Part shown: positions 1 to 64,000 of the stretch, piece by piece
Layout of the letters: every line of letters begins with the position of its first letter
Numbering within the stretch: position 1 is the stretch's first letter
Source: Narcine bancroftii
Lineage: Eukaryota
Direction: 5' to 3'
Assembly (NCBI RefSeq): GCF_036971445.1
Contig: NC_091476.1
Span: 140,802,001-140,866,000 of the forward strand
DNA length: 64,000 bases
Translations under genes and position numbers: made by a program
The notes under the pieces: generated by a model
The model's database searches: none
Seen by the model: only the letters and a program-made list of their open reading frames with translations
What the model was told of the DNA's origin: nothing

Positions 1-1350
1 TACTAGAGGCAGGGTTCCTCAACTCTTCCTCTGCAACATCGATGATTACTTTGGTGCTGCCTCATGTACCCATTATGAGCTTGTTGATTTCATCCACTTT
101 GCTGCCAACTTCGACCCTGACCTTAAATTCTCTTGGTCCATCTCTAGCGACACTCTGCCTTTCCTTGATCTCTCTGCCTCCATCTCTTGAGACAAACTAT
201 CAACGGACATTACAAAACCTCCAACTCCCACAGCTACGTTGGCTACACTTCTTCCCATCCTGTCCCCTGTAAGGATTCCATTCCATTCTCTCAACTCTTC
301 TATCTTCGTTGCAGGACAAGGTTTTCCATGTCAGATCTTCAGAGATGGCCTCCTTCTTCAAACAATGTGGTTTTCTCTCTACCACCATCAACTCAGTGCT
401 CACCCACATATCTTCCATTACCTGCACACCTGTCTAAGCCCCATTTGCTCTGACGCACAGGTCAAGATTCCTCTCGTCCTCACCTACCACCCCATCAGCC
501 TTCGCATCCTACACATCCTCATCCATCATTTCTGCCACCTAATAAGTGATCCTGTCACTAGACACCCATTCCCCTCTCCTTCCATCTCTGTCTGCTGCAG
601 GGACTGCTCCCTCCATGACTCCCTTGTCCACTCCTCCCTCCCCAGCAATCGCCCCTTGGGACCTACCCTGTGTCCGCAGGAGATGGTCCACACACCCACA
701 TCACCTCCCTCACCACCATTTGGGGCTCCAAACAAGCCTTCCAAGTGAAGCAACATTTCACTTGTGAATTTGCAGGGGTCATCTACTGTATCTGGTGCTC
801 CTGTTGTGGTCTCCTCTACAATCGCAGAGACTGGATGCAGACTGGGAGACCAATTTGTGGAGCACCTCAGCTCTGCCACAAAAGTGTGGCTCATCCAAAG
901 GCCATCCATTCCAATTCCCCATCCCATTCCCTTGCTGATAGGTCTGTCCATGGTCTCATACACTGCTAGACTGAGACCACCTGCAAATTGGTAAGAACTT
1001 CTCATCTTCTCTCTGGGCTCCTTCCAACTAAATGGCATTAACATCGACTTCTCTGGATATTGTTATACCTTTCCTCCCACCCACACTTCTACCCCCATCA
1101 CCTTCCCCAACCTCTGTCTCTCCTTTCCCCGTCTCCTTTCGCATAAACATGATCAATTCTTACCTTGTCCCTTAACATTTTTGTTGGTCTGGATTTCTCC
1201 CCCAGCTGGAGAATCTTAAAATTCTGAGACTTCTGGAATTTTCTGCTTCTGACTTCATTCTCCTTGAAGAGGGGCTCAGGCCTGAAACGCCACCAATATA
1301 TTTTTGCTTTTTATTGATGCTGAAAAGACCGGCTAAGAATCTCCAGGGTT
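1..1350 (+). mobile_element. Penelope-like element, decayed 3' part (RT C-terminus, GIY-YIG endonuclease, pseudo-LTR)
   Basis: Frameshifted ...IPLVLTYHP..., [26 protein letters not shown] and ETGCRLGDQFVEHL (PLE GIY-YIG). The tail carries TTGAAGA-GGGGCTCAGGCCT-GAAACG at about 1264-1289. Confidence 0.85.
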
Positions 1351-1529
1351 TTGTTAATGATTTTACTATTTTGGTGAGAGTGACCACAATTCCCTGAGCT
1401 TGAGCATAGCTCAGAGTAAGGATAAAAACAGACAAAATGTGGAAGTGGTTAATTGGGGAAGGGTTAATTATGATGGATGAGGCAGGAATTAGCGAGAATA
1501 AATTGGAAACAAATGTTCGAAAGTGCAGA

Positions 1530-2740
1530 ACTAGAGCCATGGAACCACAGAACACTACAGCACAGAAAAGGACCCTTCGGCCCTTCTACTCTGTGCTGAA
1601 CCATTTTTTTTCTTTTTCCTATTCCCACTGACCTGCACCCAATCCATAGCCCTCCATACCTCCCCACACATGTACCTGCCCAAATTCTTCTTAAATGTTA
1701 AAACTGAGCCCACATTCATCGCCTCAGCTGGAAGCTCGTTCCACACTCCCACCACTTTCTGTGTGAAGAAGTTCCCCCTCACTCTTAACCCATTTCCTCT
1801 GGTTTGTATCTCACCTACCCTCAGTGAAAAAACATTTACTCTGTCCATATCCTTCATAATTTTAAATACCTCTATCAAATCTCCTCTCATTCTTCTATGC
1901 TCCAGGGAATAGTCCTAACCTGTTTAACCTTTCCTTGTAACTCAGCTCCTAAAGTCCAGGCAACATCCTAGTAAATCTTCTCCACGCTATTTCTATCTTA
2001 TTGATATCTTTCCTGCAGTTAAGTGACCAAAACTGCACACAATACTCCAACTTTTGCCTCACCAATGTCTTATACAACTTTACCATAACATCCCATCTCC
2101 TATACTCAATACTTTGATTTATGAAGGCCAATGTGCCAAAAGCTCTCTTTACAACCCTATCCACCTGTGACACCACTTTCAGGGAAATATATATCTGTAT
2201 TCCTAGGTCCCTCTGCTCTACCACACTTCTCAGTGCCCTACCATTTACCATGCATGTTCTTTCTTGGTTTGTCCTTCCAAAATGCAACACCTCACACTTG
2301 TCTGCATTAAATCCATCTGCCATTTTTCAGCCCATTTTTTCAGCTGGTCCAGATCCCTATATAAGCTTTGAAAATATTCTTCGCTGTCCACAATGTCTCC
2401 AATCTTGGTTTTATCTGCAACTTGCTGATCCAATTTACTACATTATCATCCAGATCACTGTAGATGACAAACAACAATGGTCCCAGCACTGATCCCTGAG
2501 GCACACCACTAGTCATAGGCCTCCAGTCTGAGAAGCAATCATCCACCATTACTCTCTGACTTTTCGTGTCCAGCCATTGTCAAATTCATTTCATTTCTTC
2601 ACCATGAATACCTAGCATCTGAACCTTCCTGACTAATGTCCCATGTGGGACCTTGTCAAAGGCCTTACTAAAATCCACATAGACAACATTCACAGCCTTT
2701 CCTTCATCAATGCTCCTGGTAACCTCCTTGAAAAACTATA
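1530..2740 (-). mobile_element. CR1 LINE, 5'-truncated
   Basis: [42 protein letters not shown] and RGDLIEVFKIMK; CR1 3' tail. Confidence 0.92.
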
Positions 2741-2749
2741 TGACGGTGT

Positions 2750-10050: not shown

Positions 10051-12580
10051 TTGATAAAATTTTTTGTCGAGATTTGAATAAAATGGTTAGGGAGTTTTTA
10101 TGGAGGGGTAAATTTTCAAGAGTAGCTTTGAATAAATTAACTTGGAAATATGAGTTAGGGGGACTACGTTTACCACATTTTCAAAATTATTATGAGGCAG
10201 CCCAACTTAAATGTATTAGTTCATTGATAGATTTGGTACGGCCTCCTAGTTGGGCTAAAATTGAGATGGCAAGTATTTTTGAATTTGAAATACATCAATT
10301 TTTGTTTGGATGGAATATAAATTTGTTACAACAATATAATGTGCCTATACTAAAATATTTAATGAAGTCATGAATAAAGAAAAATAAAATGATAGGCTCT
10401 AGGGGTAAATTATCGGCTTTGACTCCGTTGTATAATAATCAACTTATTTCTTTTTCAATTCATAATCAAAGTTTATTGTATTGGAGATTTAAAGGTGTGA
10501 AAAATTTGGGAGATTGTTTTAAAGGGGGTAAGTTTTTATCTTTTAATCAGATGAGGGAAGGTTTTGGTATTGAAAAGAATTCTTTATTTCTTTATTATCA
10601 AATTCGATCTTTGGTAAAATGTATGTTTGGTAGAGATATGATTTTACCTAAAATGACTAAATTTGAGACTTTTCTTATGAAGGTACCAGAGAAGGGTTAA
10701 ATTTCATCTATGTATCAAATATTACAGGATGGTATGGATTAAAAGGGTTGGGATAGATCTAAAAGTAAATGGGAAGTGGATATTGGTTTTATTTTTTCCA
10801 AAGAGGATTTGTTAGATATCTGTTATGATAGTGTAACCAGATTGATAAATGTACATTATGCAATGATTAATTACAACCTTTTATATCTATTATATTTGAC
10901 ACCTGAAAAATTAAAAAGTATGGTTTTCATGAATCAGATTTGTGTTTTAGATGTGGTGATACGGTTGGAACTTTTTTTCATGCTGTTTGGCTATCTGAGG
11001 CGCCTGCAAGCTCACACCAAGACACAAGAGAAACTTGTCCGTGAACTACTCTTTGCAGATGATGCCGCTTTAGTTGCCCATTCAGAGCCAGCTCTTCAGC
11101 GCTTGACGTCCTGCTTTGCGGAAACTGCCAAAATGTTTGGCCTGGAAGTCAGCCTGAAGAAAACTGAGGTCCTCCATCAGCCAGCTCCCCACCATGACTA
11201 CCAGCCCCCCCACATCTCCATCGGGCACACAAAACTCAAAACGGTCAACCAGTTTACCTATCTCGGCTGCACCATTTCATCAGATGCAAGGATCGACAAT
11301 GAGATAGACAACAGACTCGCCAAGGCAAATAGCGCCTTTGGAAGACTACACAAAAGAGTCTGGAAAAACAACCAACTGAAAAACCTCACAAAGATAAGCG
11401 TATACAGAGCCGTTGTCATACCCACACTCCTGTTCGGCTCCGAATCATGGGTCCTCTACCGGCACCACCTACGGCTCCTAGAACGCTTCCACCAGCGTTG
11501 TCTCCGCTCCATCCTCAACATCCATTGGAGCGCTCACACCCCTAACGTCGAGGTACTCGAGATGGCAGAGGTCGACAGCATCGAGTCCACGCTGCTGAAG
11601 ATCCAGCTGCGCTGGATGGGTCACGTCTCCAGAATGGAGGACCATCGCCTTCCCAAGATCGTATTATATGGCGAGCTCTCCACTGGCCACCGTGACAGAG
11701 GTGCACCAAAGAAAAGGTACAAGGACTGCCTAAAGAAATCTCTTGGTGCCTGCCACATTGACCACCGCCAGTGGGCTGATAACGCCTCAAACCGTGCATC
11801 TTGGCGCCTCACAGTTTGGCGGGCAGCAGCCTCCTTTGAAGAAGACCGCAGAGCCCACCTCACTGACAAAAGGCAAAGGAGGAAAAACCCAACACCCAAC
11901 CCCAACCAACCAATTTTCCCTTGCAACCGCTGCAATCGTGTCTGCCTGTCCCGCATCGGACTGGTCAGCCACAAACGAGCCTGCAGCTGACGTGGACTTT
12001 TTACCCCCTCCATAAATCTTCGTCCGCGAAGCCAAGCCAAAGAAAAGAAGACATATACAATCTCTTTGGAAGAAAATTCAATCTTTTTTAGAATACCTGT
12101 ATAAGATTAAAATAGTTTTAGATCCAACAGTATTTTTATTGGGTAGTTTGCAACCTCTGAAAGGTTTGGGATTAGATAAGTTTCAGCTTGCTTTTGAATA
12201 TTTGCTTTATCCGTAGCGAAAAAATGTATTGCTAGTACGTGGAAAGATACAAATATGATTGATATAATACATGGCATAATGAGATGAAATATTGTTTAAT
12301 AATGGAACAAATTACATGTTTTGAGTGATAATTATAATTTTTTTATTAATAAGTGGTTGTTATACTCAGAATATTTACATTTCAATTTATATTGATTAGA
12401 TTTTAATATGTATATTTTTCTTTAATATTCTTTCTTTTTTCTTTCTTTATGGCTCTCCTTAGGAGAGTTGGCTGAAGGGGGGGTATTTTCTTTTCTTCTA
12501 TATATAAAAAAGTGTTCATGTTTAATTGCTGCATATGTCATATATTATTTGTTTTTTGAATGAATAAATAAAGTTTAAAA
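10051..12580 (+). mobile_element. L1 5'-truncated copy (ORF2 C-terminal part and 3'UTR), same family as 3734-6371, interrupted by an RTE
   Basis: FLWRGKFSRVALNKL..GGLRLPHFQNYYEAAQL and a CxxC..H..C knuckle near 10940-10995. 13-bp TSD AAAATAG(T/C)AACGC (10038-10050 and 12581-12593). Confidence 0.9.
10995..12050 (+). mobile_element. RTE-clade LINE, young, 5'-truncated, nested in the L1
   Basis: Uninterrupted ORF ELLFADDAAL...FTYLGCTIS...[18 protein letters not shown]..., C-terminal C2H2 [21 protein letters not shown], short 3'UTR and (GAA)-type tail. Confidence 0.93.
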
Positions 12581-19900: not shown

Positions 19901-22900
19901 TGTATTTTAATTCCCACATCGTTGTTTGTTACATACCGAGCCTCAAACTTCCCAATTCTGGTAGATGTGGTTGTTACATCCATCGCTTCCTGACCACCAC
20001 CAAGGACAACCTAACAAAACAAATCTGGGGTTAAGCGGATGAATCGCATGAAATATGATGTTATCTGTTCAGAGAAAATTAAGCAGCGAAACCCACTGCC
20101 CAAATCTTGGAAAGTCTGCAATGTCTACATACAGGCTATAGATTTTGACCCCCTCCACCAGCTTTCAAATTAAATCCTTAGACAAGTTGTATGAATTAAG
20201 GCATTTTTATGAGCAGTGAAATGCAAACCAAATTTTTTAACGTCATTGTTCGCCATTAAATGTGCGAGCTGCATCGATGAATCTACTCTTGAACCTACCG
20301 GTTCAGTATTGGACAGAGTAAAATAAACAGAGAAATAGGCATTTTTTAGGACATCCTCACATATGTTTCTTTCTGTGAAGCTCTTACTAAAGATAACTCA
20401 CACTTTATATGTTTAAATTTGCCCAGTATGTTGTTATAAAAATTACACCAACATTTTAAACATGACTAATTAAAATATGACCAATGTGTTCATAATCAAC
20501 TACTTGTCAATTCCAACCCAATGACAGACTCACTCTATACTATAGAAAAACACCAAAGTCTGCAAACACCATGATATCTACCCTGAAGAAATTCTCCTAA
20601 TCACTGTGCCAGAAGACCTTTGTGTTTTACTCCTTTCTACTGCAAAACTCTGCAAAATCTCTTTGCCTCTCCCCATTACATTTTTCCATACCTTGATGGA
20701 GCTCAAGCTCGAAAGATTAGTTATCCATCTTTATCTTTGCAATATAAAGTACAGTTTGACCTGCTGAGTTTCTCCAGCATTGTTTTTACTCGCTCTATAC
20801 CAATGGTTTTCAAACTTTTTCTTTCCACTCATATACCACCTTAAGCAATCCCTATGCCATAGGGCTCTGTGATTAGTAAGGGATTGCTTAAGGTATGTGA
20901 GTGGAAAGAAAAAGTTTGAAAACCACTGCTCTATACTATGATTGTTTCTGATCATTTCTAAAATAATTGTTCCCTGAAAGCACTAATCTGGTCAAGAGAT
21001 CAGCAGGTAATCTGGATCGGGAATTTTCAATCTTTGCCATGAACAACAGTGCACCATGGTCACAACTAACAAATAAAATCAATGATCTGATCAACTTACA
21101 CAAACTGCATAGGGACATTCTGAAAATAAGTTGACATTTCATTTTAAGAACACAAGTTATGCAACTGTGCCACAAATAAAGCGCACTAAATCACCACGGT
21201 GCAAATCACTGGGCAAACTTGGTCAGAGCCCGGGCCCAAACTAGAACCAAATCTGCTTGGATTCTGTCTCTTTCAACTCTCCATGGACGTCATTCCAGAA
21301 AATTCTGTCCTAGATAAAAGTTTTTGTGATAAATGCATCCCTTAAGGAGCAAAATAAATGCCATTTAAACTATTTATCATTTAACTATAACTGGAGAAAC
21401 ATGATGCATTCTCCTCATAATATGGTATTCACCGTGGAAGTATTTTCGCACTCTGAGGAATCAAACCTTGGAGATACCACATGACCACAGAATTTATCTG
21501 ATGATCTATTCCTTACATCAATTACAAGCAAACCCTGGGTTATGAACAACTCGTACATATAAATGAGCTGTTCCCCAATTCATGCATGTGCATAATTATG
21601 CCCCAATTCACAAGTAATAAACCCACCCTACTCTGTAACCCCCCCCCTATTTTTCCTTCATTCATGAGTCTCTTAAATGCCCTTAATGTTTTAGCCTCCA
21701 CCACCATCCCAGGCACGGCATTCCAGGCACCCACGACACTCTGTTTAAAAAAAAACTTACCCCTGATGTCTCCTCTAAACTTACCTCCCCTTTGTGCATA
21801 TGTCCTCTGGTGTTTGCTATTCCTGCCCTGGGAAACCGGTGCTGGCTGTCCACCCTATCTATGCCTCTCATAATCTTGTAGACCTCTATTGTCTCCTCTC
21901 ATCCTTCTACGCTCCAAAGAGAAAAGTCCCAGCTCTGCTAACCTTGCCTCATTAAACTTGCTTTCCATCCATCAGAACCAGGTTCAACTGAGCATTGAGC
22001 TAAATTGTTTATTACAAAGTATGCATGTAGTCCCTGCAACAAATCAAGCAACTTACATGTTCCACAGAAGGAGAAATAGCAGCTGAATTCACTGGTCGTT
22101 CAGTCCTGAATGTCTTCAAGTGCTCTAAACTTGCAGAATCAAATAACTGTAATAGAGAAGATCCAAGTGTAAGAAAAGCAGACAGGCAGCAACACTAACT
22201 TCAATCAAACTTATGTGCAAGATCTAAATTATTTGGTTTTGCCCTCATGACTGATGTCAAGGCCCAACCATTATGGTTCCCTTCACCTGAAAAAGCAGCT
22301 GTGTATACCGTCTACAGCAAGAGCTAGCACATCCAAACTATGGAGGGAAAGCCCCAAGCAGCAGAATCCCAGCTCTATCTCAGCAAGACATGAAAAGTAG
22401 AACAACCGTCAGCAAAATAATAGATGACACTTTGATATAGTGAAGAGAAATCTCATTTTCCAGATCATCTGAGATATCCTCATCCTTAAAAAAAAAAGTG
22501 GCTTCGCCTTTACCATCAGCCCTTACCCACATCTCCATTTCCAGCACATCTACCCTGGCCCTTTCTGCCCTTGGAAGCAAAAAGAACAAGATTCCCCATG
22601 GCCTCACCTACCACCCCACCAATCTCTACATCCAATGTATATTCCTCAATCTCCATCACTTACATGATCCCACCCTCATATTCTCCTCACCTCTCCACAT
22701 TCTGCAGGAACTGCTCCCTATGTGACACCCTCGTACACTCATCCCTTCTCACTAATCGCCCCCTTGGCACCTTCCCATGTGATTGCAGGAGGTGCCACAC
22801 ATGCCCACACCCTCCTCCTTCACCACCATTTGGGGCCCCAAATAGTTCTTTCAAGTGAAGCAACACTTCACTTGTGAATCAGCAGGAGTTATGTACTGCA

Positions 22901-25900
22901 TCCTGTGCTCCCGTTGTGGACTTCTCAACATTGAAGAGACTGAAATAAGACTGGGAGATCTCCTCTGTCTGAATCAGTGGCAGGGATCGCCCAGTGGCCA
23001 ATCGTTTCAGTTCTGCATTTTTCCACGCCGACATATCTGTTTGTGGGCTCGTACATTGCCAACTAAGGCCACCAATAATTGGAGGAGCATCAACTAACTT
23101 TCTGTTTTAACACTGACTTCTCTGGTTTCTGCTGACCACTTCCCGTTTTCTCTCTCTTCCCCATTCCTCTGACTCCTTTCTTCCAGCTCTCCACTCGCTT
23201 CCCCCATTCACAGAGCCACCCCCCCCCCACCTTTTCTCTTGCGGCCTCCCTTCCTTATCCACCCATTACCTCTTGCCTTTGGTCCTGTGCTCCTCCCTCG
23301 TTCCCCCCCCCCCATTTTATTCAGACGCCTGCCTACTTAGGCTTATACCTTGATTAAGGGCTCAAGCCTGAAACATTGGTTATGTATCTATATAAAGTAC
23401 ACTGTTTGACCTGCTGAGTTTCTCCAGCATTGTGTTTTTAATTCAATCATTGCATCTACAGACTTTTGTGTTTCACTCCAAAATTGCCTTAGATTTAACT
23501 AAAATATCACAACTTCTGTCAACATGTAAACAAGATCAGAGCTTTTAATTAAGTCACAGCTTTTAACTGGGTAAAGGATTCAAAACTCCACAACTAGTAC
23601 ATAACAAAATGATCTCTATCACCTTTATTGACTTGTACACGTCTCTGCACACTTCATTTGGAACTCAGTGCTTTATGCCTCGAAACTGCAGTATAGTTTG
23701 ATACAACAAAATGTTCCAGTAGTAATGCTTAAATTAAGAATGTTAACCGGCTTACCTTAGCAGTATTGTCCTTTGAAGCAGTGATAAACATGGTAAGGTC
23801 CAAGGATGTCTGGATGTCATTAATTTGCTTGGTGTGCTCCTTTGCTTTAGAAATTACTTCCCCAGACTGTTGCAAGTTTTAAAATGAGCAAATCAATATA
23901 AAGTATCAATTATGGCATAAAATATAAATGTTGTAGTGGGCGCACAGCGTGGTATTGCGAACCGCCACCTTCAGTTCACAGACTTACCCGACACTGCTAG
24001 CAGTGCTGGGCGCCAAAGTACAGTGAGTGGATCAGATGAAGCCCCTGCCTAAAGGCGCGGGGCGCGAATGGCTCATAGCTTTAACCTGCTGGTCCACAGG
24101 ACCAGCATCTGTTCACTAACGAGTTCATTAACAGACAGGGAATAAAAGGTCTGTGTATGTCTGCAATAAACCAGTCTTGAGTTGACTCCCTTTGTGTGTG
24201 TTTGCCTTTATTTAGTAGCATCTACCGTAGTAGCTGCTACACGTTGGTGACCTCGACGTTAAGATTCAACGAATTTGAGTCATTATGGAAAAGGAGGACA
24301 TTTCAACAGGCAGCAACAACTGTCGTTGCCGCCACGACAGTTAATGCAGTTGGGCTTCATTTGCCTCCTTTCTGGATACATCAGCTTCGAATTTGGATTC
24401 TTCAAGCTGAAACCCAGTTTCGTCTTCGGGGTATAATGGCAGAAGACACAAAATTTTGGCATGTCATGAGTACATTGGACGCGGCCACTGCCTCGCGAGT
24501 AAGTAAATTTATTGCTCATCCTCCGGCAGAACACCAGTACACCAGGTTCTGCCAGTTTTTTCTTGACACATTGGAACTTACTAGGCATGAGCGTGGCATG
24601 TGTATTTTGAACGTGGAAGGCCTAGGTGACAAGAATCCATCAGACCTAATTTAATTTCTACTTTAAAAATGGGTTTTAATAAGATATTAAAAATAGTGAT
24701 CTCTCTCTCAAATAACTCATGTAGAACACTCCTTTCATATACTTCTCAACTATTGAGAAAAAGGTGAGCTAATGTTAACTAGAGTTTCAAACATAACTTT
24801 CAGAATGTATTCCAAGTGAAAATAACATTAAAAACTCTTCATTAATATTTAGGAAAGATCATTGGAAACTCACCATGAAAATTATGATTTTGCATATTGC
24901 TGGCTTTAAATAAGAAAAGCCTACAGCAATCTTTTAATTTAGACAACAGGCCATTTTGGCCAACGAGTCTGTGCTGCCCAGTTAACCTACAGTATGGCAT
25001 CTGCTCCCACCACCTCACCTGGCAATGTAGGCACCTCCACTCTTCGTGTTTTAAAAAAGCCTGCCTTGCAAGTCTCCTTCAAACTTTCCCCTTTCACCTC
25101 AAATATATGCCTCATAGTATTTGACATTTCCGTAATGAGAAAAAGACCCCATCTATGCATCTCATAATCATATGTAATTCTGTGATGCTATCCTCAACCT
25201 CTAATGCTCCGAGAAGCAGAACCAGACGCTATCCTCCCAATGTGGCCTAACCAAGGTTTTAAGTGCTAATCTTTTCAGAAAGGAAAACAACCATCTTTTT
25301 TGCCAGATGTAATATATTGTATAGGTAGCAAAAGAAAGGTTCAGACAAAAGACAAAATATAGAACATTACAGCATAGTACAGGCACCTTGGCCTATGTTG
25401 TGCTGACCTGTGCATACCAAACAACCCCCCCCCCCAAAAAAAAAAGAAAACCTCCCTACCCCCGTAATCCTCTATTTTTCTTTCATTCATGTGTCTGTCT
25501 AAGAGTCTCTTCAATGCCCCTATTGTTCCAGCCTCCACTAGATAATTAATTAAAAACCCGGATGCCACTTTATCATGGATTAACAACTTTGGCCAACCAA
25601 CATTACCCAACTAACTTTTTACATTTCCACTGACAAGAATAAATTGAGGCAGCTATCCTCACACAACTCCATATTTTTGTTTTACCAAGTTATCCATTTA
25701 AAATTAACATATGTCAATAGTTTGTAATACATTGTCAACTGACCCCACTTAATAACACACATAAGTTAAATCTCAACATAGCAATTGTATTTCTAATGGC
25801 AACATGCTATTTCCAGGTGTTATCTAGTAAATAGTCTCTGAACTGCCTTCAATGCATTTATATCATTCCTTAAATATGGGAAGCAACATCATACAACATT

Positions 25901-28900
25901 ATTCCAGATATGGTCTCACCAATGCCTCATCAGTGAAGCACGATATGCCAACCTTTTTTAAATGTAATTCTACAAGTAACAATCAGTGACATTGCTTCCC
26001 AATTTCCTGCAACTTACTGTACCTACACACTAAGCTTGTACAAATTAGGCACTAATCTACCTAGATCTCTCAAACATACCTGGGCACACAATACCTAGAC
26101 ATCTCCATCATATCTCTGCACAAGAAAGCTATGCAATCTCTCATCATTTAGAAAGTTTGCTTTGTTTAGTTTTTGTGTCAAAACAATTTCACACAATTCT
26201 GCCAGATACATAGCCACTCACACACACACAATCTAAAACACAGATTGTTAATACACTTTTACTGCATCTTTGCGACAAACAATTCAAGATCCATCATTCT
26301 GACAGTCTATCTGATTGTAGAAGCTCTTTTCAGTGCAGCAATGCTAAAGTTAGTGACACTAGTACCAATGAGTTACCTTGCATTGTTTCACATCTCTCTT
26401 CTCTCAAGGGGGAATGACTCTCTGGATTTCTCAGGCCGTGAGCGTGGAGGCCAGATCATTAGACACAGTTAAAATGCACAAGTATTTACATGGTGGGGAA
26501 AGTGGCCAGAACAAAGCACCCATGATCATATTGAAAGGTGGGCCAGGCCATCCACTGCTGCTGCCATTTTCTTGTGTTATTCACTCTGTAGTGATGATCT
26601 CTACCTCAGGAGGCAGGCACACCAATTCAATGTCATTAGGATGCTGTCATCAGATGCCAACAATTAATGCATAGTTTCGCCTTACCTTAGCACTAATCTG
26701 GACCAATTCACCATTTTCATGTCCTGCAATGACAAATTCTCCAAGAGGTCCCCAAACAGCACTTGTTATTTTGGATTCATTGGCTGGCACCTTCATGTGC
26801 GGTTCATTATTACCTAAGGATCAACAGGGCATTAAAGGTAAATAGAAATTCTGAATCAATTTACTACACCGCATCTTGAATGTGCAGAGAAATTTTGGTT
26901 GAACACTTAATTTGATAAGTAATCAAATTTCAGACACCCATGTAGAAAACAATGGAACTAATTTATGCATAGGAAACTCGTACAAACAGGATTATTATTT
27001 TTTAAACAAATTATTTGATTTATAATTAACCATTGACCAAAAAACCAGGGTAATCTCACTTCAGACAAATACCAAGGCTGCAGATACTGGAACCTTCAAT
27101 AAATGAGATACTGGAGGAACTCAGCAGGTCATGCATCATCCAGAGATAGAAATGGTCTTAATCAATAAAGAGCCTCAACTCAAAACATTGATTGACCATT
27201 TCCAGCCTTCTGGACTCGATGCTGAATTCTCCAACTTCTGATTCCTTACATTCCGTCTGCCTGTATAAGAAACATTCAGCATTGGCTCAATTTCTCTTAC
27301 TTTATTTGCATTGTCTTGCCATTTACAACATCCATTGATTCAGAGGTTTAACATACTGAAAATAGCCCTTATTAACCCATTTGGACTCAACCAATCAAAG
27401 ATTTTCCCCACTGTTCAGACCACCCCTCTCTCTTATTCCTCTTCCCCATTCTGAGGAATGCTCCCAGACCCGAAACGCTAACTGCCTCTGTGTCCACAAA
27501 TACTAGCCGACCAGCTAAATGTTCGATATTTTGCACTCTTTTGTGAAAAATGATTCCCTGGCTTTCTGCACTGCAACTACCATCATATAATGGCGATAAC
27601 CACGAAAGTTGTTGCCCACTTTCAAATCCATCACCCTCAATATTTAAAAGTTTGACATTTCAAGAGTCCACTGTAAAACTGATAATGGTAACAGTCATTG
27701 AATTATTGAATAAGTCCACGCTGCTGAAGATCCAGCTGCGCTGGGTGGGTCACGTCTCCAGAATGGAGGACCATCACCTTCCCAAGATCGCGTTATATGG
27801 CGAGCTCTCCACTGGCCACTGTGACAGAGGTGTACCAAAGAAGAGGTAGAAGGACTGCCAAAAGAAATCTCTTGGTGCCTGCCCCATTGACCACCGCCAG
27901 TGGGCTGATATCGCCTCAAACCGTGCATCTTGGCGCCTCACAGTTCGGCGGGCAGCAGCCTCCTTCGAAGAAGACCGCAGAGCACGCCTCACTGAAAAAA
28001 GACAAAGGAGGAAAAACCCAACACCCAACCCACCAATTTTCCCCTGCAACCGTGTCTGCCTGTCCCGCATCGGACTTGTCAGCCACAATCGAGCCTGCAG
28101 CTGACGTGGACATTTACCCCCTCCATAAATCTTCGTCCGCGAAGCCAAGCCAAAGAAAAATTGAATAAATAACCTTGTGATCCAAGTTCCACCGTGGCAG
28201 ATGTCAAGTTAAAGTTCAGCATTTAAAAAAAACCCACCATTACGAGAACGAAATTAGAAGCTTGTTGCAAAGTCTATTATCTCACTAAAGCTCATCAGGG
28301 AACCAAAATATATAAGCTTTACTTGGCCTGGTCAGATCCAATGTAAAGTGGCTGAGTTTATACTGTCCTCCAGGAAACTCAGCAGATCAAACAACGTTCT
28401 TTATATAACATAGATAAAGATACATAACCAATATTACGAGCTTGAGCCCTTCATCAATGTACGTGCAAAATGGAGGAAGCAGTCCGAAATGTTGGTTATG
28501 TATCTTTATCTTTGCTATATAAAGTACACTATTTGACCTGCTGAGTTTTCACCAGTGTTGCACTTTTACTTCAAGCATGCTGTCTGGACTTTTGTGTTTT
28601 ACTCCTGTCCTGGATGTCAGTTAGTAATTAGGTGCAACTATCTGTTGGAAACCAGTAAATACAGGAGATGTCACAACAAACTAAACTAAATGTAGGCCGA
28701 TTGAAAGTTGTCCCTCTCCATCGTTATTTTCCTTGGATTTGTTTTTCTAATAAATAAAATTAGTTTATGTATCTGAGAGCAGGTGGCTTCTTTTAAATAC
28801 TTTAAGGGAAGAACATCCAATCTCAGAAGGGAAGACCTTTTTTGGAATTCTTATCAGTATACCTTATCCTTACTTATTTGAGCAGGATCTCGGATGTCAA

Positions 28901-34900: not shown

Positions 34901-37900
34901 TGGAGAGCTCGCCATATAACAGGATCTTGGGAAGGCGATGGTCCTCCATTCTGAAGACGTGACCCATCCAGCGCAGCTGGATCTTCAGCAGCGTGGACTC
35001 GATGCTGTCGACCTCTGCCATCTCGAGTACTTCGACGTTAGGGGTGTAAGCGCTCCAATGGATGTTGAGGATGGAGCGGAGACAACGCTGGTGGAAGCGT
35101 TCTAGGAGCCGTAGGTGGTGCCGGTAGAGGACCCATGATTCGGAGCCGAACAGGAGTGTGGGTATGACAACGGCTCTGTATACGCTTATCTTTGTGAGGT
35201 TTTTCAGTTGGTTGTTTTTCCAGACTCTTTTGTGTAGTCTTCCAAAGGCGCTATTTGCCTTGGCGAGTCTGTTGTCTATCTCATTGTCGATCCTTGCATC
35301 TGATGAAATGGTGCAGCCGAGATAGGTAAACTGGTTGACCGTTTTGAGTTTTGTGTGCCCGATTGTGATGTAGGCTGAGAGATAACTACAAGATCAGCAA
35401 CCATGAGGCCAAGTTTATCACCCAACACACAGCTGATTGAGTAGAGTGCCTATTGAACCAATGTGCTACATAATGACAAATTAATTGCACTGTGATTTTG
35501 TCTTAAATTGATTTCCAACTGCTTATGGAGGACAGAAAGGGATAGGAACTAGAGTAGGTCAGCAAGTAGAGGGATTTAAGGAAAAAGGATGTGAGGTCAA
35601 GTATGGAATCCAGGTCCACGTCAATAAGCAAGGTGGAGTGGATGGACATTACGCTTGGCATGGACGAGGTGGGGCATAAGGGTCTGTTTCTGTTCTTTAC
35701 GTTTCCATAATCCATTAAGAGAAGGAGGAAATAAAAGGAAAAGCCTGTCATCTGATAGATTTTATTATAATTACAACCCACTTCATCATAAAAATGACTG
35801 CAGTGAAGGGCCAAACCCTTAAAATCACATATCAAAAGAAGGACATACCTGGGGGAAACTGCATGATGTCAAAGCAGACAGAAAAGCTTGGAGTACATCA
35901 ATTTCCAATCTGGGAACAAGTACTTACATCATCAGATGAAGGAGTTGAAATGGCGTGTTCTAATCATGTTAACAAATGTGGCAGAATTAGCATTATAATT
36001 GATTTTGTGTTGATTTGACTTATGGTTGTTGGTCAATAAACTGACAGCCTTGACTTGAAAGGCTGAACTATGTTGGCAGCAAGAAGTAAAACACAAAAAT
36101 CTGCAGACACCATGATTGAAGTAAAAACAATGTTAGAGAAACTCAGCAAGTTAAAAAGTGTACTTTATATAGCAAAGGTAGAAATGCATAACCAATCATC
36201 AGGGTATGAGCAAAATAGCCTGGGGAGGGGAGGGGAGGGAAGGGGGGGGCAGGTGTGGAAAGAAGGGAGAGGAGCACAGGTAGGAGGTGTAGGTGGAAAA
36301 GGGAGGAAGGATACGAGAGAAAACTGGGGGTGGGGGAAGATAGTTCTGTGAATGGAGAAGGAAAGAAGTGGAGGGCTGGAGGAAAGAAGACAGGAGATAA
36401 GAAAGAGGAAGAACGAGGAGTGAAAAATAGGTAGCAACAGATATTTGTTGCTGTTGTAGCTACAAGGAGCGAAATTGAAGGAAACAACAAGCTGAGGTGA
36501 GTTTCAGTTTCAATCGTTTATTTGAAAGCCTGCACGCTGCCCTTCAAGAGGCGAGTGCGAGACTCGTCACCGTGTTGGCTGTGAGGTCATTAAGCAGCCG
36601 AAAAGCGTGCACGATGACCGAAGCAACGAGGAATCCCCGAACCCAACAGCGCCATCTTAACGTGGCTGCTCCGCTACCACAGCCATCACATGTGGAGCCG
36701 GTTCACCTGCGTCGTGATGTGTGCCACCACTCAATCCCCCAGAAATGGCTTTAGTGTCCTGATGCTGGTACCGTTGGCTGCCCGTAGGACGGGGTCTCAC
36801 AGCTGAGTGCGAGTCTCCAGTGCGGTTGGTGGGATTACGCTGAGTTCAGCGCCCGTGTCAACCAGGAACCATCGGCCACTTGTCTGTCATGTGGAGGAGG
36901 TTGTTGATGGGGCCAGCCATTAGCGGCGGCTGGCCTGGTTGTTTTCCTGAAACGAGCAGGGTTGTCTGCATTTGTGTGCCTGGGCTCCCCAACGCTGATG
37001 ATAGAAGCACCAGGTATGTTCGGAGCCTCTGTCTTTTTGCTGGGGCGCGGTTGTGGCCGGCTGGGGTGTCACCTGACTCATGGCTGGTTCGTCTTCGTGC
37101 ACCACAGGACATCCGCTCGAGCTGCGACTTTGCATGGGTCCGAGAAGTCCTCATCTGCCAACAATAGTTGGATGTCGTCCAGCATTTGTTCCAGGAAGGC
37201 ATGCTCAAACATGAAGCACTGTTTGTGACCTTCTGCCAAGGCGAGCATCTCGTCCATGAAGGCAGATGGTGCCGTCTCCTAGGCCGTCCAGGTGCATGAG
37301 CCTGGCCGCATGCTGGCGTCTGGACAGGCTGAACGTGCTGAGGAGGAGCTGTTTGAGTGCTGGGTATTTACCCTCCTCCGGGGGATTGTGGATTAGGTTG
37401 TCCACTCTGGCAGCAGTCTCCTTGTCGACGTGGTAGAACATCGTTGAGTCAAGAGTTGATTTGTCGGAAATGAAACTGTGCTTCCACGTCCCTGAACCAT
37501 GTGCGTGGGTGAAGCGTCCAGAAGGGCAGTAGTTTCACGGCGACTGTGTTTACTGCTGCAGCATCCATGATGTAGAGGCCAGAATCGTCTGGGCTTGTCG
37601 GGGTCACCAATTGTAGCGGTAGCTACAAGGAGCGAAATTGAAAGAAACCACAAGCGGAGGTGAGTTTCAGTTTCAACTGTTTATTTGAAAGCCCGCATGC
37701 TGCCCTTGAAGAGGAGAGCGCGGGACTTGTCACCACGTCGGCTGTGATGTCATGACACAGCCAAAAGGCGCGCATGATGGCCGAGGCCATGAGGAATCGC
37801 CGAACCCAATGGCACCAAGTTAACGTGGCTGCTCCACTACCGCGGCCGTCACGTGCGGAGCTGGTTCACCTGCGTCGCGATGTGCACTGCCTCACTGACC

Positions 37901-43787: not shown

Positions 43788-43790
43788 GCT
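42890..43790. repeat. Degenerate C-rich tandem repeat (core CCCCACCATGC) at the start of eif3i intron 1
   Basis: At least 12 (C)ACCATG copies in a low-complexity tract; G-rich on the eif3i sense strand. Confidence 0.85.
43785..43787 (-). CDS. eif3i: eif3i exon 1 coding part (ATG only)
   Basis: Minus strand GCAGC-ATG|GTGGGG, with A at -3, 62 nt downstream of a TCT motif. Exon 2 starts at Lys2, so exon 1 must supply only the ATG. Confidence 0.75.
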
Positions 43791-43902
43791 GCCGGTGCCA
43801 CTGAACTGTTTCTTCTCCCTCTCTCCACCACAACGCCGCCACCGGAAAGACCGAGTCCTCTGGCGGAAGTGGTGCCGGGTGAGAGGTCGAGGCGCCGATC
43901 CC
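43788..43902. promoter_or_regulatory. Bidirectional CpG-rich promoter and 5'UTRs shared by eif3i and tmem234
   Basis: Divergent ATGs at 43787 (-) and 43903 (+). TCT/TOP-like TCTTTCC on the minus strand (43850-43844). ETS/GABPA-type GGCGGAAGTG at 43862-43871. High CpG density. Confidence 0.85.
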
Positions 43903-52205
<8,303 letters not shown>

Positions 52206-53139: not shown

Positions 53140-53980
53140 AGATGTCTGACAAAATCTGTGCTGATTGTATTCAGTAAAATTATAATGCTGGAGAAATTCA
53201 GCAGGTAAAACAATGTACTTCAGATAGGAAAGATAAAGACACAATCAATTTTTTGGGCTTGAGCCCTTCATCAAGGAATGAACAAAATGAAGCCAGGTGC
53301 CCAAACAAATTGGTGGAGGGGTGGAGGAGCATAGGCCCCAGGAAGGAGGTAATAGGTGGATAAGGGAGGGAGTGCACACCACAAACGGGGACAGGGGGTA
53401 GCTCTGTGAATAGAGAGGGAACGGGGTGGAGAGCTGGAGGAAAGGAGACCGATAGGGAAGAGAAGGAGAACGGGGAGTGGTCTAGCAAAAACTGGAGAAG
53501 TCGATGTTCATGTCATCCCATTGAAGAGTTCCCAGACGGAAAATTAGGTGTTGCTTCTCCAATTTACGGGTGGCCTTGGTTTGATAGTACATGAGGCCAT
53601 GGGCAGACATGTTGGTGTGGGAGTGGGGCGGGAATTGAAAAGTAGGCCACAAGAAGTAAAGTGACCTCCCAGTCTGCGTTTAGTTTCTCCAATGTAGAGA
53701 ACCCAAATGTCTTCTCCCAGCAAAGCTATCCCATCAGTCCCATACTCCTCTCCTGTGGACTTCCAACGGATTCTCTCTCACACAGACCCAACAAATCTCT
53801 TGATCATTTGTCTCTCACCTACACATTTTGTTCATACCTTGATGAAGGGCTCAAGCCTGAAATGATGGTTATGTATCTTTATCTTTGCTACATAAAGTAC
53901 ACTGCTTGACCTGCTGAATTTCTCCAGTATTGGGTTCTTTACTTCAGCCACAGTGTCTACAGATTTTCGTGTTTTACTTC
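53140..53980. mobile_element. Penelope fragment (minus strand) bounded by inverted pseudo-LTR modules
   Basis: Module on the minus strand at about 53140-53290 and on the plus strand at about 53830-53980. The internal part matches the 3' GIY-YIG region. Confidence 0.78.
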
Positions 53981-57080: not shown

Positions 57081-57280
57081 TGGAGTGAAACACGGAATTC
57101 CATAGTTGCTGTGATTGTAGTCAAAACCCAGAAATGCTGAGCCGATCTCGCAGTGTCCATAGGAGGTAAAGATATGTAATTGCCAATTTGGGCCTGTCAA
57201 GATATCAGGCCCAAAACATCAGTTCTTTACCTTCTATGGATGCTGCGAGACCAGCTGAGTTCCTCCAGCATTTTTTTCTT
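57081..57280. mobile_element. Short inverted Penelope pseudo-LTR pair (second subfamily); a similar one lies at about 54230-54355
   Basis: CTCGCAGTGTCCATAGGAGGTAAAG...TTGGGCCTG versus CAGGCCCAA...CTTTACCTTCTATGGATGCTGCGAG. Confidence 0.7.
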
Positions 57281-58059
57281 TTAACTGCGTGATCCATTTT
57301 CCTGCTCAGTCCCAAATCCCTTAATCCAAAATTTTGTTGATTTCAGCTTTGAATAAGCAGGACTGAAGTTCGTCAGTCCAGGGGTAGGGAATACCAAAAG
57401 GTAACAATTTCTCTTCACCTCAGCAATCAAAGTCTGGCTGCTTATTCTGATGTCATGTCCTCTAATTCTGGACAGCATTTGATCAACCAGTCCTCATCTT
57501 CATTGAACTGAAGACAGGGTTGAAAGAGTTTTTGTAAAAAAAAAATTGGTGTGGGGATGTTGAAGGGGAGATTAAGGAGACGAACATCTCTCTAGGGTCT
57601 AGATTTAAGTTTAATTGACAAATGATTCAAAGGTGTTAAGCAGAAACTTTATTCAACTAGTGATCTGGAATGTACTGTTCGAAGGAGTAGAATAAATTTC
57701 AAAAGCAAATGGGTAAATGCACAGTAACATTTACAAAAGTGTAGGGAAGGAAGTGAAGGTAGTGGGATTAATTGGATATTTTGTTCAATAAAATACCTCC
57801 CAAGCTATAAAGTGCTAACCCTATCAAACAAATGGCCAAAGAGCTAAGTTTTAAGGAGTGACTGAAAGGGTGGGTTTGAGGGGAGGGTGGGGGGTGAAGA
57901 ATTTGGAAGAGATTTCCAGAACTTTCAGATGCAAGTATAGCCTCCAATTCAGGGATGATTTATAAGTCGGAATTCGAGAAATGAAAAAAAAAAACACTGG
58001 AAGGATTGTAGTGTTGGGAGATGACAGGAATAATGCAAGGCTGCAGGAATTTGAAAACA

Positions 58060-59601: not shown

Positions 59602-62600
59602 ATGTCTGATGTTTCTGTGGGCTCTGAGCCCCTACGTGAGCCAGTGGGATTAAGTGCAGGGACTGAAGTACTTCCCAAACATGGTGAAATCCCTTCAGTT
59701 CGTACAAAAGTGTGGAAAACGCAGGAGCAGAGTAAAACGTACACTCGTGAGGCAAGTGATGTAAATGCAGATTGGTGTAGTAAGATTGCAAGAAGTATTG
59801 TTGGACCTCTGTCTGATTTCTAGCTAATAAAACAAATTGCCAGCACAGCTTGAATCAATCAATTAATGTAAATAATTCACTGTTCCATCCAACTTCTGTT
59901 TTGAATCCCTGACATCACTTCCTTGCTATTTTTATTTCCATTTCTTATATCAGGATGCCTAATATAGAATAATTCTGGATATTCCTCATGGATGCAGGTA
60001 ATAATATTTATAGAAATAGTCTTAGTGCAATGTCTCAGAATTTTCATGTCTCTTTCCGAAACTTATGGTCAGTGACTCCACTCAATTTGCACACAGGAGT
60101 GAAAATGCTGAGTGACCAAAGGAAATGCTCACACTAACCATATTCATGAAGCAAAATTAATTTATTTGTATAGATTAAATATTCATCCTGTAGATGTATT
60201 GATTGTGTGTTATGTCTGGTTGTGTGTCTGCATGTTTTGCATCAAGGACCAGAGAACACTGATTTGTTGGGTTGTACTTGTACAGTCACATGGCAATAAA
60301 CTTGACTTAATGTGACTTGACAATTTTTGCCTAGTTTGACATGTTTTTAGTTTTGAGTTTGATCTTGAACTTATTGAGACAATTCTGGATTTGCATTCAA
60401 CCAATATAATTGGGCAATGTTTTAAATTGTAACCTTTCTTTAAAAAAAAAGCTTTAGTAAGTATTTCAGCCACTCAGGTGCCATAGCAACCCTGTGGAAG
60501 GTGATGGTGGGATAGAATTGAGCGGGATTGCAGGCTCGAGCTCACGGAATGAAATCAGTGCCCCTCAATGCAACTGGCCCACCCTTGGTGGAGGCTTTGC
60601 AACTATTTCTAGTTCATCTTTATGACTGTTCTACCAATAATTCCCAATGCAGAGCAAGGATTGTTAGTGTGGAAATCTGCAGTTACTGCTGCTCACAACC
60701 AATGAGTCTGAGCCCAGACATAGGAGGTTCTATCCAGTTTCAATAATGATTCATTCTTTCCTGCTTGAACAGCATAATGGCAGTCAAGGCCAAGGTGCTG
60801 GTTATAGACTTCTGGAAGAGGAGTGGGGCTCACCCTTCTGTCCACACCATCAAATGGAGATTGTATGGCAGCTGTAAGAGTTTAGGGGTAAATGCCTCTA
60901 ATTACCTGCCCTGACACAATTACTTGGGTATTGGCACAGTGGTCAGGAAAATGCATCAGCATCTCTACTTCCTCGGAAGCCTGATGAAATTTGCACGTCA
61001 CCTGCACCCCTCAACAATTTCTGTAATACACCAAGAAAGTATTTTGTCTGAGAGCATCAATGCATGGGATGGGAACTGCTCCACCCAAGATCACAAGGAA
61101 TAGCAGAGAGTTGGGAATGCTGCTCTGACCATCACACAAATCCCCTCCCCTCCATCAACTCCATCTACACATCGCTTTCTCAGAAAAGCATCCAACATAT
61201 TAAAAGTTTCACCCACCTTGGTCACCCTCCTCCCTCCTCACATCAAGAGGTATATTTCTGATTACAAGATCACATACCATCTGATTTGAGAAGATGCTTT
61301 CATTCTCAGACTGTTGAAAGACCCTTACATACTCAAAATGATGTCGCCTTTGCTCTGTTCTGACCTGTCTCTGTAACTTTGCACTCTGTATTGCTGAACT
61401 ATGTATCAGTTGACTTGCTGGGCTGTTGGCAAAACAAGCTCTTCCATAACACCTTGATACACGTGACAATAAACGTGAATTTAAACTTGGTGGTGAATAG
61501 GCAACTCCTAAATAGAATAGATCCACTTTCACAGATAGATCTGAATAAGAGGGAACAAAAGACAATTAATCCAGTTTTTAATTGATGGAGAAACTATGAT
61601 ATTTTTCAATAGGAAATTAATGTATGATCTATCCTAGGGCCTCCATGTTGATGCAGTCATGATAAAGGTTTGCCAGTGGCTATACTTCATTAGAAGTTTG
61701 AGGAGATTTGGTATGTCACCGAAGAATCCTGTATTTTTCTACATGTATACCATGGAGAGCACTCTGACTGGTTGCATCATGGTCTCGTATGGAGGTGCCA
61801 ATGCACAGGACAGGAAAAAAACATCAGGGAGATGTTCATTCGGCTGGCAGCATCACGGGCACCAGTCTTCATTCCATCAAATACAAAAGGGGAGTGTCTT
61901 AAGAAAGCAGCCTCTATCCTCAAGGATCCTCACCACCCAAATCATGCCCTCTTTACACTGCTTCCATGAGGAAGGAGGTACAGGAGCCTGAACACAATCA
62001 TCCAGCAGTACAAAAACACCATCAATTGGCAGAGATCTGTTTCTTTGAGCCAGAAAATTCCAGGTTCAAGTCCCCTATAGAGACTGAGCACCAAAATCTA
62101 GGCTAACGCTTCATTACACTACTGAGGGAGTACTGCACTGTTAAAGGTACTGTCTTTCAGATGAGATGATAAACCATGTTATCATTTTACATCTCAAGCA
62201 AATGATGGGTGTTTCAAAGAAGAATTCAGAATCAGAATTTATTGTCGTGAACATGTCACGAATATCGCTGTTTTGTGGTAGCATCTCAGTGCAAACGTAT
62301 GTAAACCACCTTACGAAATAAAATTTAAAGAAAATAGTGCAAGGGGAAGTCTAAGATTTTCATGGTGTTCTTAGGAACAACACCTCATCTTCCATCGGGG
62401 CATCCTCCAATCAGATGGCATTAACATCGACTTCTCCAGTTTTCATTAGCCCCACCCATCTCACCCCTACCCCTACCCCTTTTCTCTCCTTTCCTCTCGC
62501 TCTGCATTCACAGAGTCATCCTCTCCCCAGATCATTTCTCACCCTTCCTTTCCTGTCCTCTGTCCAATTATCATCTTTTGTCTGTGGTCTGTTTTCATCC

Positions 62601-64000
62601 TCCTTCCCTTTCTTTCTTTCTCCCTAGCCTTTTAATTCACACCCCTTCCTGCTTTTTACTCATACCTCGAAGAAAGGCTGAAACCCAAAACATCGATTAT
62701 ATATCTTTAACTTCTATGGGCAACGCAAGACCTGCTGAGTTCCTCCAGCATTTTTGTATTTTTACTTCATGATATTCTGGTCAGCATACATTCACCAAGA
62801 AAAAAAAATCACTGAAACAGATAACCAATTTCCTTTCAGGTGATTGTTTCTGGGATCTTGCTCTGTACAAGGTGGCTGCTGTGTTTCCACTCCCTGTGTC
62901 ACTGACCAGTTCCAAATAACATAATTGCTTCCAAAACTCATACAACTTCCTGAAAAGAATGACTAAGGCACTTGATGAATCCTTTTCCAGGAACTGATCT
63001 TGCTCCCAACCTGGACAACAAGATCCTGGCATGTGATAACTGATACCTATGACTGATCCTGACCTTCTCTGTCCACAGAAATGCGTCGAATGCAGCAGCT
63101 GCAAGGGGAGCAATCAATATTTGAAGAGAAATTATCAGGGAAGCAGTGAACAAACTCCAGCAATTAAATCTTGCAGGTACTTCATTAGCATGGTTGATTT
63201 GTCAAACGTGAGCTACATCTGCCAAACGTAGTAAATGTCAAGATCATTACTGCAGGTGGTCACAAATGTTTATAGAAACTCCTAACATTTGCCTCTGTTC
63301 TCTTAGTCATTGCCTTAATCATTCTTTCCACACAAAAAATGATTTTCAGCAGATGAGTGAGGTAGAGGAATGTTTTTTTTAACAACAACCTGTCTCATAC
63401 AAGACCTTAAACCTAGGTGTAAAACTGGGCCTACATTTTGCTCAAGACCAAAACATTGGTTATGTATCTTTATCTTTGTCATATAAAGTACACAGTTTGA
63501 TCTGCTGAGTTTCTCCAGCATTGTGTTTTTAAATGAACCTTGAACAAGGACTCAGACCCAAAACTTCAGTTATTTATCTTTACCTCCTATGGACTCTGCG
63601 AGATGGCTGAGTTTCTCCAGCATTTCTGCGTTTCTAGAAGAAATTATAACTCCACTTGTGCCGCCTGACCTGCTATTTACAGCTTTTACTGCTTTCATTT
63701 CAGATTTCCAATATCTGGAGTCCATTGCTTTTTGACATTCTGGCCCCCACGGGCCCTGGGGTCAATGCTTTCGTTTTTTTCACTGGTTTGCCAGTGATCC
63801 ATTCTGACCTCTTGTTGGGACATTGTAATCCCCATGCAGAGAGTTACAGAGAGAGAAAAGTCCATACAAGTTGGGTTCTGCCAGGTTTGGACATCAACCT
63901 GCCTCTCCTTGTGACTTTATTAGTCACACCAGAACATTTTACACTGGCTTGGCAAATCCACTGAAAAGGCCCTCTGGGAAACAGCAGTCAATATCCTACC
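59602..64000 (+). CDS. Candidate 5' part of an unidentified multi-exon gene (exons 59602-59751, 63079-63176, 63840 to beyond 64000)
   Basis: Acceptor tttcctctcgacag at 59588, ATG at 59602, then GAG|gcaagt (GC donor, phase 0). Next cttctctgtccacag|63079-63176|gtac (phase 0 to 2), then ccatgcag|63840, open to the window end only in the required frame. No homology recognised. Confidence 0.45.
60780..62020 (+). mobile_element. Two decayed Rex1/Babar-like fragments (about 60780-61485 and 61625-62020)
   Basis: QWLYFIRSLRRFGMSP..ESTLTGCIMVSYG and KKAASILKDPHHPNHALFTLLP. Confidence 0.7.
62050..62200 (+). mobile_element. DeuSINE (SacSINE1/AmnSINE1-like) remnant
   Basis: B-box GGTTCAAGTCCC, then TACTGAGGGAGTACTGCACTGTTAAAGGTACTGTCTTTCAGATGAGATGATAAACC, recognised from memory as the Deu domain. 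Confidence 0.65.
62370..62770 (+). mobile_element. Penelope 3' fragment with pseudo-LTR; further modules at about 63440-63530 and 63538-63635
   Basis: GAACAACACCTCATCTTCC...GGCATTAACATCGACTTCTC as at 997-1053, followed by the module tail. Confidence 0.75.

What the first reader, a model, noticed from the sequence alone, without database searches (positions are those of the whole stretch)
1262..63635. Dispersed Penelope pseudo-LTR module with a variant minimal hammerhead ribozyme core
Seen: more than 10 copies of one module (about 1262, 20690, 23345, 27450, 28440 minus, 51900 minus, 51960, 53250 minus, 53835, 62660, 63440, 63540). By-eye consensus: CATACC-TTGATGA-A-GGGC TCAA GCCC-GAAA-CG-TT-GGTTATG. 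This maps onto a type-I hammerhead: stem I (CATACC/GGT(T)ATG), core YUGANGA, stem II GGGC/GCCC, GAAA, palindromic ACGU stem III, and an NUH site. Established: Penelope-like elements carry minimal hammerheads in their pseudo-LTRs, and these act as dimers. Inference: this family appears to fix a C3U change (U3-G8 wobble), an extra A after A9 and a GUU site, so it may be an uncatalogued ribozyme variant. Copies sit inside both pre-mRNAs.
Basis: partly seen in the sequence, partly recalled or inferred. Interest (0 to 1): 0.7.

Follow-up and report, generated by a model that had tools for sequence, protein, structure and literature searches.

The report
Decayed Penelope-end hammerheads with wobble core
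These repeats are the worn-out tail ends of very abundant Penelope-type jumping genes, each carrying a damaged copy of a small, predicted self-cutting RNA motif whose odd features are all already in print, so they are ordinary, and none of the copies here is likely able to cut.

Summary
The module is real: 19-24 copies in the window (reversed controls 0) and an estimated 3-5 x 10^5 in the genome. It is the 3' pseudo-LTR of GIY-YIG Penelope-like elements: 17 of 21 endonuclease-region hits have it just downstream on the same strand. U3 is inherited, not decay: 256 exact U3 copies against 8 with C3, also in an older family with compensated stems. It is not uncatalogued. Cervera and De la Pena 2014 list the base after A9 as a standard feature, GUU sites are common there, and their Saccoglossus motif combines U3, G8, extra A, CG palindrome and GUU. 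The copies decay neutrally: G12 survives in 45 of 87, 1 of 87 has an intact core, 0 of 19 in the window. No pile-up of copy starts at the cut site was seen (0 of 30). Cleavage is untested. The scan reported this before, in this genome (e1-9879921, e1-9939962) and another (e1-8649666). What remains open is how a U3-G8 core performs.

The parts
8..1060 (+). Broken, 5'-truncated PLE coding remnant: RT C-terminal part, CxxxxCxxC-type linker, GIY-YIG endonuclease region
   Evidence: tblastn with natural in-frame pieces from other copies, E 1e-38 to 5e-48; related copies hit Pfam GIY-YIG weakly (E 0.0016, below cut-off) and RVT_1 (E 0.0057)
1254..1371 (+). pLTR module, family B2; U3, but U16.1 changed to C (core broken)
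20673..20786 (+). pLTR module, family A; deletion at A9-stem II; in an EIF3I intron, antisense
22535..23062 (+). Broken PLE linker and GIY-YIG remnant upstream of the 23318 module
23318..23461 (+). pLTR module, family A; G8 changed to T; in an EIF3I intron, antisense
27451..27479 (+). Older C3-type hammerhead relic with damaged stem II and U16.1 changed to C
   Evidence: read by eye; not an HMM hit
28374..28487 (-). pLTR module, family A; A13 changed to T; sense to EIF3I; inverted partner of the next part
28482..28586 (+). 5'-truncated inverted pLTR partner, lacks positions 3-10
51820..51946 (-). pLTR module, family A; stem II and palindrome broken; last intron of TMEM234, antisense
51937..52089 (+). 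pLTR module, family A; G12 changed to A; last intron of TMEM234, sense, ends about 40 nt before the splice acceptor at 52129
53167..53307 (-). pLTR module, family A; G12 changed to A; in the TMEM234 3' UTR, antisense
53488..53712 (-). GIY-YIG end remnant belonging to the 53307 module
53822..53962 (+). pLTR module, family A; U16.1 changed to A and CG palindrome lost; in the TMEM234 3' UTR, sense; inverted partner of the 53307 copy
57115..57282 (.).
62375..62443 (+). Last codons of the PLE coding region upstream of the 62637 module
62637..62768 (+). pLTR module, family B1; U4 changed to C, G12 to A
63440..63531 (+). pLTR module, family A type; positions 3-10 missing
63534..63639 (+). pLTR module, family B1; G8 changed to C, G12 to A

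Best explanation
The repeats are decayed 3' pseudo-LTRs of GIY-YIG Penelope-like retrotransposons, each holding a minimal type I hammerhead motif with an inherited U3 opposite G8 that likely cut slowly in the parent elements and is predicted to be dead in every copy in this window. Shown: dispersed high-copy module; position 100-370 nt downstream of the endonuclease region; back-to-back inverted pairs; U3 as the parental state in several subfamilies; neutral CpG decay of the copies. Inferred: in the parent elements the motif was kept by selection for cleavage, because across subfamilies only the tolerant positions vary (7, 17 as U or C, loop II) and stems I and II change in compensated pairs; the two-base CG palindrome lets two motifs form stem III together, or the element's protein helps folding, as published for other PLEs; cleavage after position 17 would free the element RNA from a longer transcript. 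The U-G wobble likely lowers the rate, which the element tolerates because cutting is slow or optional in its cycle.
For: PLE link: 17 of 21 endonuclease-region hits in 1.14 Mb of arbitrarily placed genome stretches have a same-strand module within 900 nt, 0 opposite only, 4 none; chance about 0.05 each. RT and GIY-YIG motifs in neighbouring frames. U3 parental: 256 vs 8 exact copies; C3 in 306 of 3716 core-intact motifs (control 36); U3 in 30 of 30 family A and 32 of 36 family B copies not selected for their core; 21 of 30 fetched copies of the older GTC/GAC-stem family. Compensated stems between families: stem I ACC/GGT in family A, GTC/GAC in the older family (191 matches, control 0), and pair 10.4-11.4 is T-A in 13 of 30 older copies, where the pattern did not fix it, against C-G in families A and B. 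On 50 core-intact copies, 16 cells change on both sides, 3 of 500 shuffles as high. Dead copies: G12 kept in 45 of 87, G12A in 38; 1 of 87 intact; 0 of 19 in the window. Literature: dimers of a minimal PLE hammerhead cleave weakly, monomers not (PMC4209133); the Anolis PLE ribozyme needs the element's protein and is dispensable for insertion in vitro (PMC11167929).
Against: No cleavage was measured. Covariation is modest and reflects a few events between related families; the shuffle control ignores relatedness, and pair 2.1-1.1 is unpaired in 17 of 50 rows. Predicted folding does not favour the active form: the hammerhead dimer scores -17.9 kcal/mol against -30.0 for the best dimer, the monomer pairs G5-G8 with 15.2-17 into an inactive hairpin, and stem I probability drops from 0.89 to 0.17 with flanks (30 copies; core tertiary contacts are not modelled). 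No copy start piles up at the cut site (0 of 30). No full-length element with two pLTRs was found in 6 of 6 long copies examined. Pfam hits for the endonuclease and RT are below the curated cut-offs. The clade assignment (Neptune-like) rests on the linker motif only.
Confidence: 0.72

Rival explanations
1. The U3-G8 motif no longer cuts. The lineage kept the fold for another job, such as binding the element's protein or shaping the RNA end, and spread without cleavage.
For: Cleavage-dead mutants of the Anolis element still insert in vitro and no RNA reads begin or end at its cut site; Naiad and most Chlamys elements lack hammerheads and proliferate (PMC8557442); inactive folds are predicted to win; no cut-site starts.
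Against: All subfamily consensuses keep G5, A6, G8, A9, A13, A14, A15.1, U16.1 and a non-G at 17, while position 7 varies (the G12 plurality in one cluster is lost to CpG decay); this is the pattern expected of selection on catalysis. C3 sister lineages coexist.
Confidence: 0.2
2. The module is a separate non-autonomous element (SINE-like or retrozyme) that spreads on its own, not simply the truncated end of the PLE.
For: Most copies are short and lack coding sequence; animal retrozymes derive from pLTRs (bioRxiv 2026.07.22.740005).
Against: Upstream homology runs without a fixed boundary from the module into the endonuclease and RT for 1 kb or more, as expected of 5' truncation; Tandem Repeats Finder lists no array of the module in the window.
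Confidence: 0.05
3. One or more copies were taken into use by the host to cut or regulate EIF3I or TMEM234 transcripts as ribozymes.
For: Copies lie in introns of both genes and in the TMEM234 3' UTR.
Against: All four sense copies have broken or deleted cores; contig depth is similar on both sides of the 53866 site (contigs cannot show ends).
Confidence: 0.02

Closest known systems
Minimal type I hammerheads (min-HHR) in pLTRs of metazoan Penelope-like elements (Cervera and De la Pena 2014, PMC4209133), especially the Saccoglossus kowalevskii(1) row of Fig. S3
   Same: Place in the pLTR; base between 9 and 10.1; G10.1-C11.1; two-base CG palindrome instead of stem III; thousands of dispersed single copies; inverted close pairs. 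The Saccoglossus row has U3, G8, extra A, CG and GUU together.
   Different: The paper's text discusses only U3-A8 as a core variant and lists no cartilaginous fish among the rows I read; here U3-G8 is the majority state of several subfamilies and of about nine in ten core-intact motifs.
Hammerhead of the Anolis Poseidon element PAc (PMC11167929)
   Same: pLTR hammerhead of an endonuclease-bearing vertebrate PLE; 30-40 nt optional tail at the element end.
   Different: PAc has C3-G8 and was assayed (protein-assisted, dispensable for insertion in vitro); this family has U3 and a zinc-finger-like linker typical of Neptune or Nematis elements.
Animal non-LTR retrozymes (bioRxiv 10.64898/2026.07.22.740005)
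   Same: Type I hammerhead derived from PLE pLTRs.
   Different: Retrozymes are tandem arrays with intact motifs; these copies are dispersed, truncated and continuous with PLE coding sequence.
Natural core variants of Perreault et al. 2011 (PMC3088659), incl. U3-A8 and saltern variants
   Same: Natural change at the 3-8 pair; one saltern variant is written with U3 and G8 (PMC7151607).
   Different: Those are microbial or phage motifs; the U3-G8 one also has a two-base insertion.

Membership tests
Endonuclease-bearing Penelope-like element | RT followed by C-terminal GIY-YIG endonuclease in one coding region | tested here: met
   Collinear RT, linker and GIY-YIG remnants at window 8-1060 and in other copies; Pfam hits weak, below cut-off
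Endonuclease-bearing Penelope-like element | pLTR directly downstream of the coding region | tested here: met
   17 of 21 hits, 100-370 nt
Endonuclease-bearing Penelope-like element | 5' truncation and inverted 5'-truncated partner copies | tested here: met
   Window pairs at 28.4, 51.9, 53.3-53.8 and 57.2 kb; 14 of 24 close neighbour pairs in the sampled stretches are back-to-back
Endonuclease-bearing Penelope-like element | Full-length unit with a pLTR on both sides | tested here: inconclusive
   0 of 6 long copies had an upstream same-family pLTR; all 5'-truncated; small sample
Neptune clade | CX2-5CxxC linker between RT and endonuclease | tested here: met
   Seen in L058 and L055 frames; defined in PMC8557442; shared with Nematis
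Neptune clade | RT phylogeny | not tested
   No reference RT set on hand
Minimal type I hammerhead (min-HHR) | Core boxes UGANGA and GAAA, U16.1, H17 | tested here: met
   Subfamily consensuses and 3716 genomic matches vs 36 control; not met in any of 19 window copies
Minimal type I hammerhead (min-HHR) | Watson-Crick pair 3-8 (C-G or U-A) | tested here: not met
   U3 with G8 in families A and B; a published PLE-associated row has the same combination, so this does not exclude membership
Minimal type I hammerhead (min-HHR) | Base between 9 and 10.1, G10.1-C11.1, palindromic 15.2-16.2 | tested here: met
   A9.1 in 80 of 87; CG with CpG decay products
Minimal type I hammerhead (min-HHR) | Stems I and II supported by compensatory change | tested here: met
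   Between families, about three pairs; few independent events
Minimal type I hammerhead (min-HHR) | Self-cleavage after position 17, as a dimer or with protein | not testable with these tools
   Indirect test for cut-site starts negative
Non-LTR retrozyme | Tandem units each with an intact hammerhead, no coding sequence | tested here: not met
   No array in the window; copies continue into coding sequence

The most novel reading that the evidence does not exclude
A vertebrate Penelope lineage replaced the hammerhead's C3-G8 pair by U3-G8 early, kept the rest of the motif through compensated stem changes across successive subfamilies (about 23% to 6% diverged), and reached over 100,000 copies beside C3 sister lineages: either a wobble-core ribozyme tuned to cut only when the element's protein binds, or a hammerhead fold kept for a non-cutting role.
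Probability: 0.25. Interest if true: 0.5.

Novelty: new member of a known kind. Interest (0 to 1): 0.22.

Why it matters
As an observation it adds little: hammerheads in Penelope ends are known since 2014 and this combination of features is in that paper's supplement. The useful residue is a natural comparison inside one genome: successful U3-G8 lineages beside C3-G8 lineages. Assaying both would bear on an open question stated in the literature, whether these elements need their ribozyme to cut at all.

Tried and rejected
Rfam scan of the window at E up to 1: 6 chance-level hits, no hammerhead family. Pfam on the window's own PLE frames: no family for 3 of 3; 7 of 11 frames from other copies had no family at all and 1 had only an unrelated weak hit. 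Protein atlas look-up gave no answer. Cut-site start test, a lead from earlier scan notes: 370 genomic copies of the downstream 19-mer lack the upstream AAA; in the 30 fetched, 0 match the consensus exactly up to the cut site, 4 stop one base short (2 of them internal deletions); by eye 1 of the 100 listed ends there, and it is a deletion. The test is small and covers family A only. Core conservation above flanks within families: non-CpG core 92% against flank 86%, not taken as evidence because the HMM anchors on the core and flanks mix subfamilies; the CpG core positions are at 58%. In one search I mis-placed the two stem III pairs (helix 4), which lowers the overall percentage; those columns were fixed by the search pattern and carry no information. 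Forcing A at 1.2 mostly retrieved single mutants of families A and B, not compensated pairs. No RNA holder on record was listed; the four runs laid are contigs guessed to be RNA, from one study, and cannot show RNA ends. Papers not held: Lunse et al. 2017 on PLE hammerhead dimers and Przybilski and Hammann 2007 on the 3-8 pair; either may already describe or measure U3-G8. Searches for a measured C3U rate found none. A search for hammerhead, Penelope and shark found no relevant paper. bioRxiv supplements were not seen.

Full report
Observation. Pattern, repeat and BLAST scans show a dispersed module of about 150 nt. A profile HMM finds 19 copies in the window and 52 in 540 kb taken at round-number positions of the genome, with 0 in reversed sequence. 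An iterated profile finds 24 in the window and 166 in 1.14 Mb (113 with the first profile), again 0 reversed. Scaled to the 3.33 Gb genome this is 3-5 x 10^5 copies; the window is about 2.5 times richer than average.

What it is. Copies share upstream sequence for variable lengths up to 1 kb or more. That sequence encodes broken RT, a cysteine linker and a GIY-YIG endonuclease (Pfam E 0.0016 and 0.0057, below cut-off). In the sampled 1.14 Mb, 17 of 21 endonuclease-region hits are followed within 900 nt by a same-strand module, against about 0.05 expected per hit. The window has four such units (8-1060, 22535-23062, 53712-53488, 62375-62443). Back-to-back inverted pairs are common (14 of 24 close pairs), a described PLE arrangement (PMC8557442, passages). 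The linker points to Neptune or Nematis; no tree was built. Six long copies were all 5'-truncated.

The motif. Clustering 210 of 368 aligned copies (those covering both halves) gave eight groups from 5.6% to 23% diverged. U3 is parental: 256 exact copies against 8 with C3; 306 of 3716 core-intact motifs have C3; among 87 copies not selected for their core, family A has U3 in 30 of 30 and family B in 32 of 36. In the older groups 12 of 21 have U3, and 8 show an alignment gap there that likely hides C3. An older family with a GTC/GAC stem I has 191 matches; position 3 is U in 21, C in 8, A in 1 of the 30 fetched (by eye 75, 21 and 4 of the 100 listed). Its pair 10.4-11.4 is T-A in 13 of 30, where families A and B have C-G. 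So U3 coexists with compensated stem changes, and C3 sister lineages exist in the same genome. On 50 core-intact copies covariation is modest. Position 7 varies, position 17 is U or C.

State of the copies. G12 and the CG palindrome sit in CpG sites and decay: G12 is kept in 45 of 87, 1 of 87 has an intact core, and none of the 19 window copies keeps core, stem II and palindrome. This is neutral decay after insertion. For 30 intact copies from elsewhere, stems I and II form in isolation, but the core is predicted to pair into an inactive hairpin, stem I is mostly lost with flanks, and the hammerhead dimer is 12 kcal/mol above the best dimer. No pile-up of copy starts at the cut site was seen.

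Host genes. EIF3I lies on the minus strand and TMEM234 on the plus strand. Contigs of four runs guessed to be RNA join 51132 to 52129 at GT..AG and continue to about 54541, so the 53.2-54.0 kb inverted pair lies in the TMEM234 3' UTR. All four sense-oriented copies among those with core sequence are broken.

Mechanism. Shown: identity as PLE ends, parental U3, decay. Inferred: the parent elements kept a slow, dimer- or protein-dependent ribozyme. Support from print: weak dimer cleavage and no monomer cleavage of a minimal PLE hammerhead (PMC4209133, main text parts 1-2 of 4 read); protein-assisted and dispensable cleavage in the Anolis element (PMC11167929, passages). That a U-G wobble lowers the rate is my recalled knowledge; I found no measured value.

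Comparison. The base after A9 is listed as a conserved trait. Supplement parts 1-2 of 3 of the same paper show many GUU sites and a PLE-associated Saccoglossus row with U3, G8, extra A, CG and GUU. Perreault 2011 (passages and section 8) covers U3-A8 and saltern variants; PMC7151607 (passages) writes one with U3 and G8. The retrozyme preprint (part 1 of 5 and passages), PMC6765202 (passages) and PMC6155905 (passages) give context. Lunse 2017 and Przybilski 2007 could not be read and may bear on novelty. Earlier notes of this scan describe the same family in this genome and a U3-G8 family in another; they are not independent evidence.

Verdict. Real, ordinary, a new member of a known kind. The residual question is whether a U3-G8 core cuts. 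Interest 0.22.

Noticed in passing
window 53167-53962 (TMEM234 3' UTR): The inverted pLTR pair lies in the 3' UTR and is predicted to form a long double-stranded stem (z -6.2 on 20 shuffles). Contigs show A>G at 53213 and 53222. This may be A-to-I editing or alleles; G at 53213 is also the family's usual base, and T>A and T>C differences occur nearby too.
   Followed up: partly
window 51937-52129: A sense pLTR copy with its tail ends about 40 nt before the last splice acceptor of TMEM234 and carries its own pyrimidine-rich stretch ending in CAG; the contigs use the 52129 site.
   Followed up: partly
L098:7270-7521 and L119:5773-5932: A derived module type with a repeated downstream box and a broken stem II occurs at two unrelated loci, suggesting a subfamily that spread with a damaged hammerhead.
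   Followed up: no
window 42950-44282: C-rich degenerate repeats followed by an 8-bp-unit array in the CpG-rich stretch between the divergent EIF3I and TMEM234 genes.
   Followed up: no
window 11209-12053 and 34530-35374: Two 845-nt copies, 98% alike and inverted, of the RT end of a young LINE (RTE-like by recall), with further copies at 8.9 and 27.7 kb.
   Followed up: no
window 24181-24654: Frame with a Pfam DUF7041 match (E 7e-13) inside an EIF3I intron, likely a retroelement remnant.
   Followed up: no
G000:C11:208810517, 208867663, 208930375: Three identical C3-type motifs about 60 kb apart, probably a segmental or tandem duplication.
   Followed up: no
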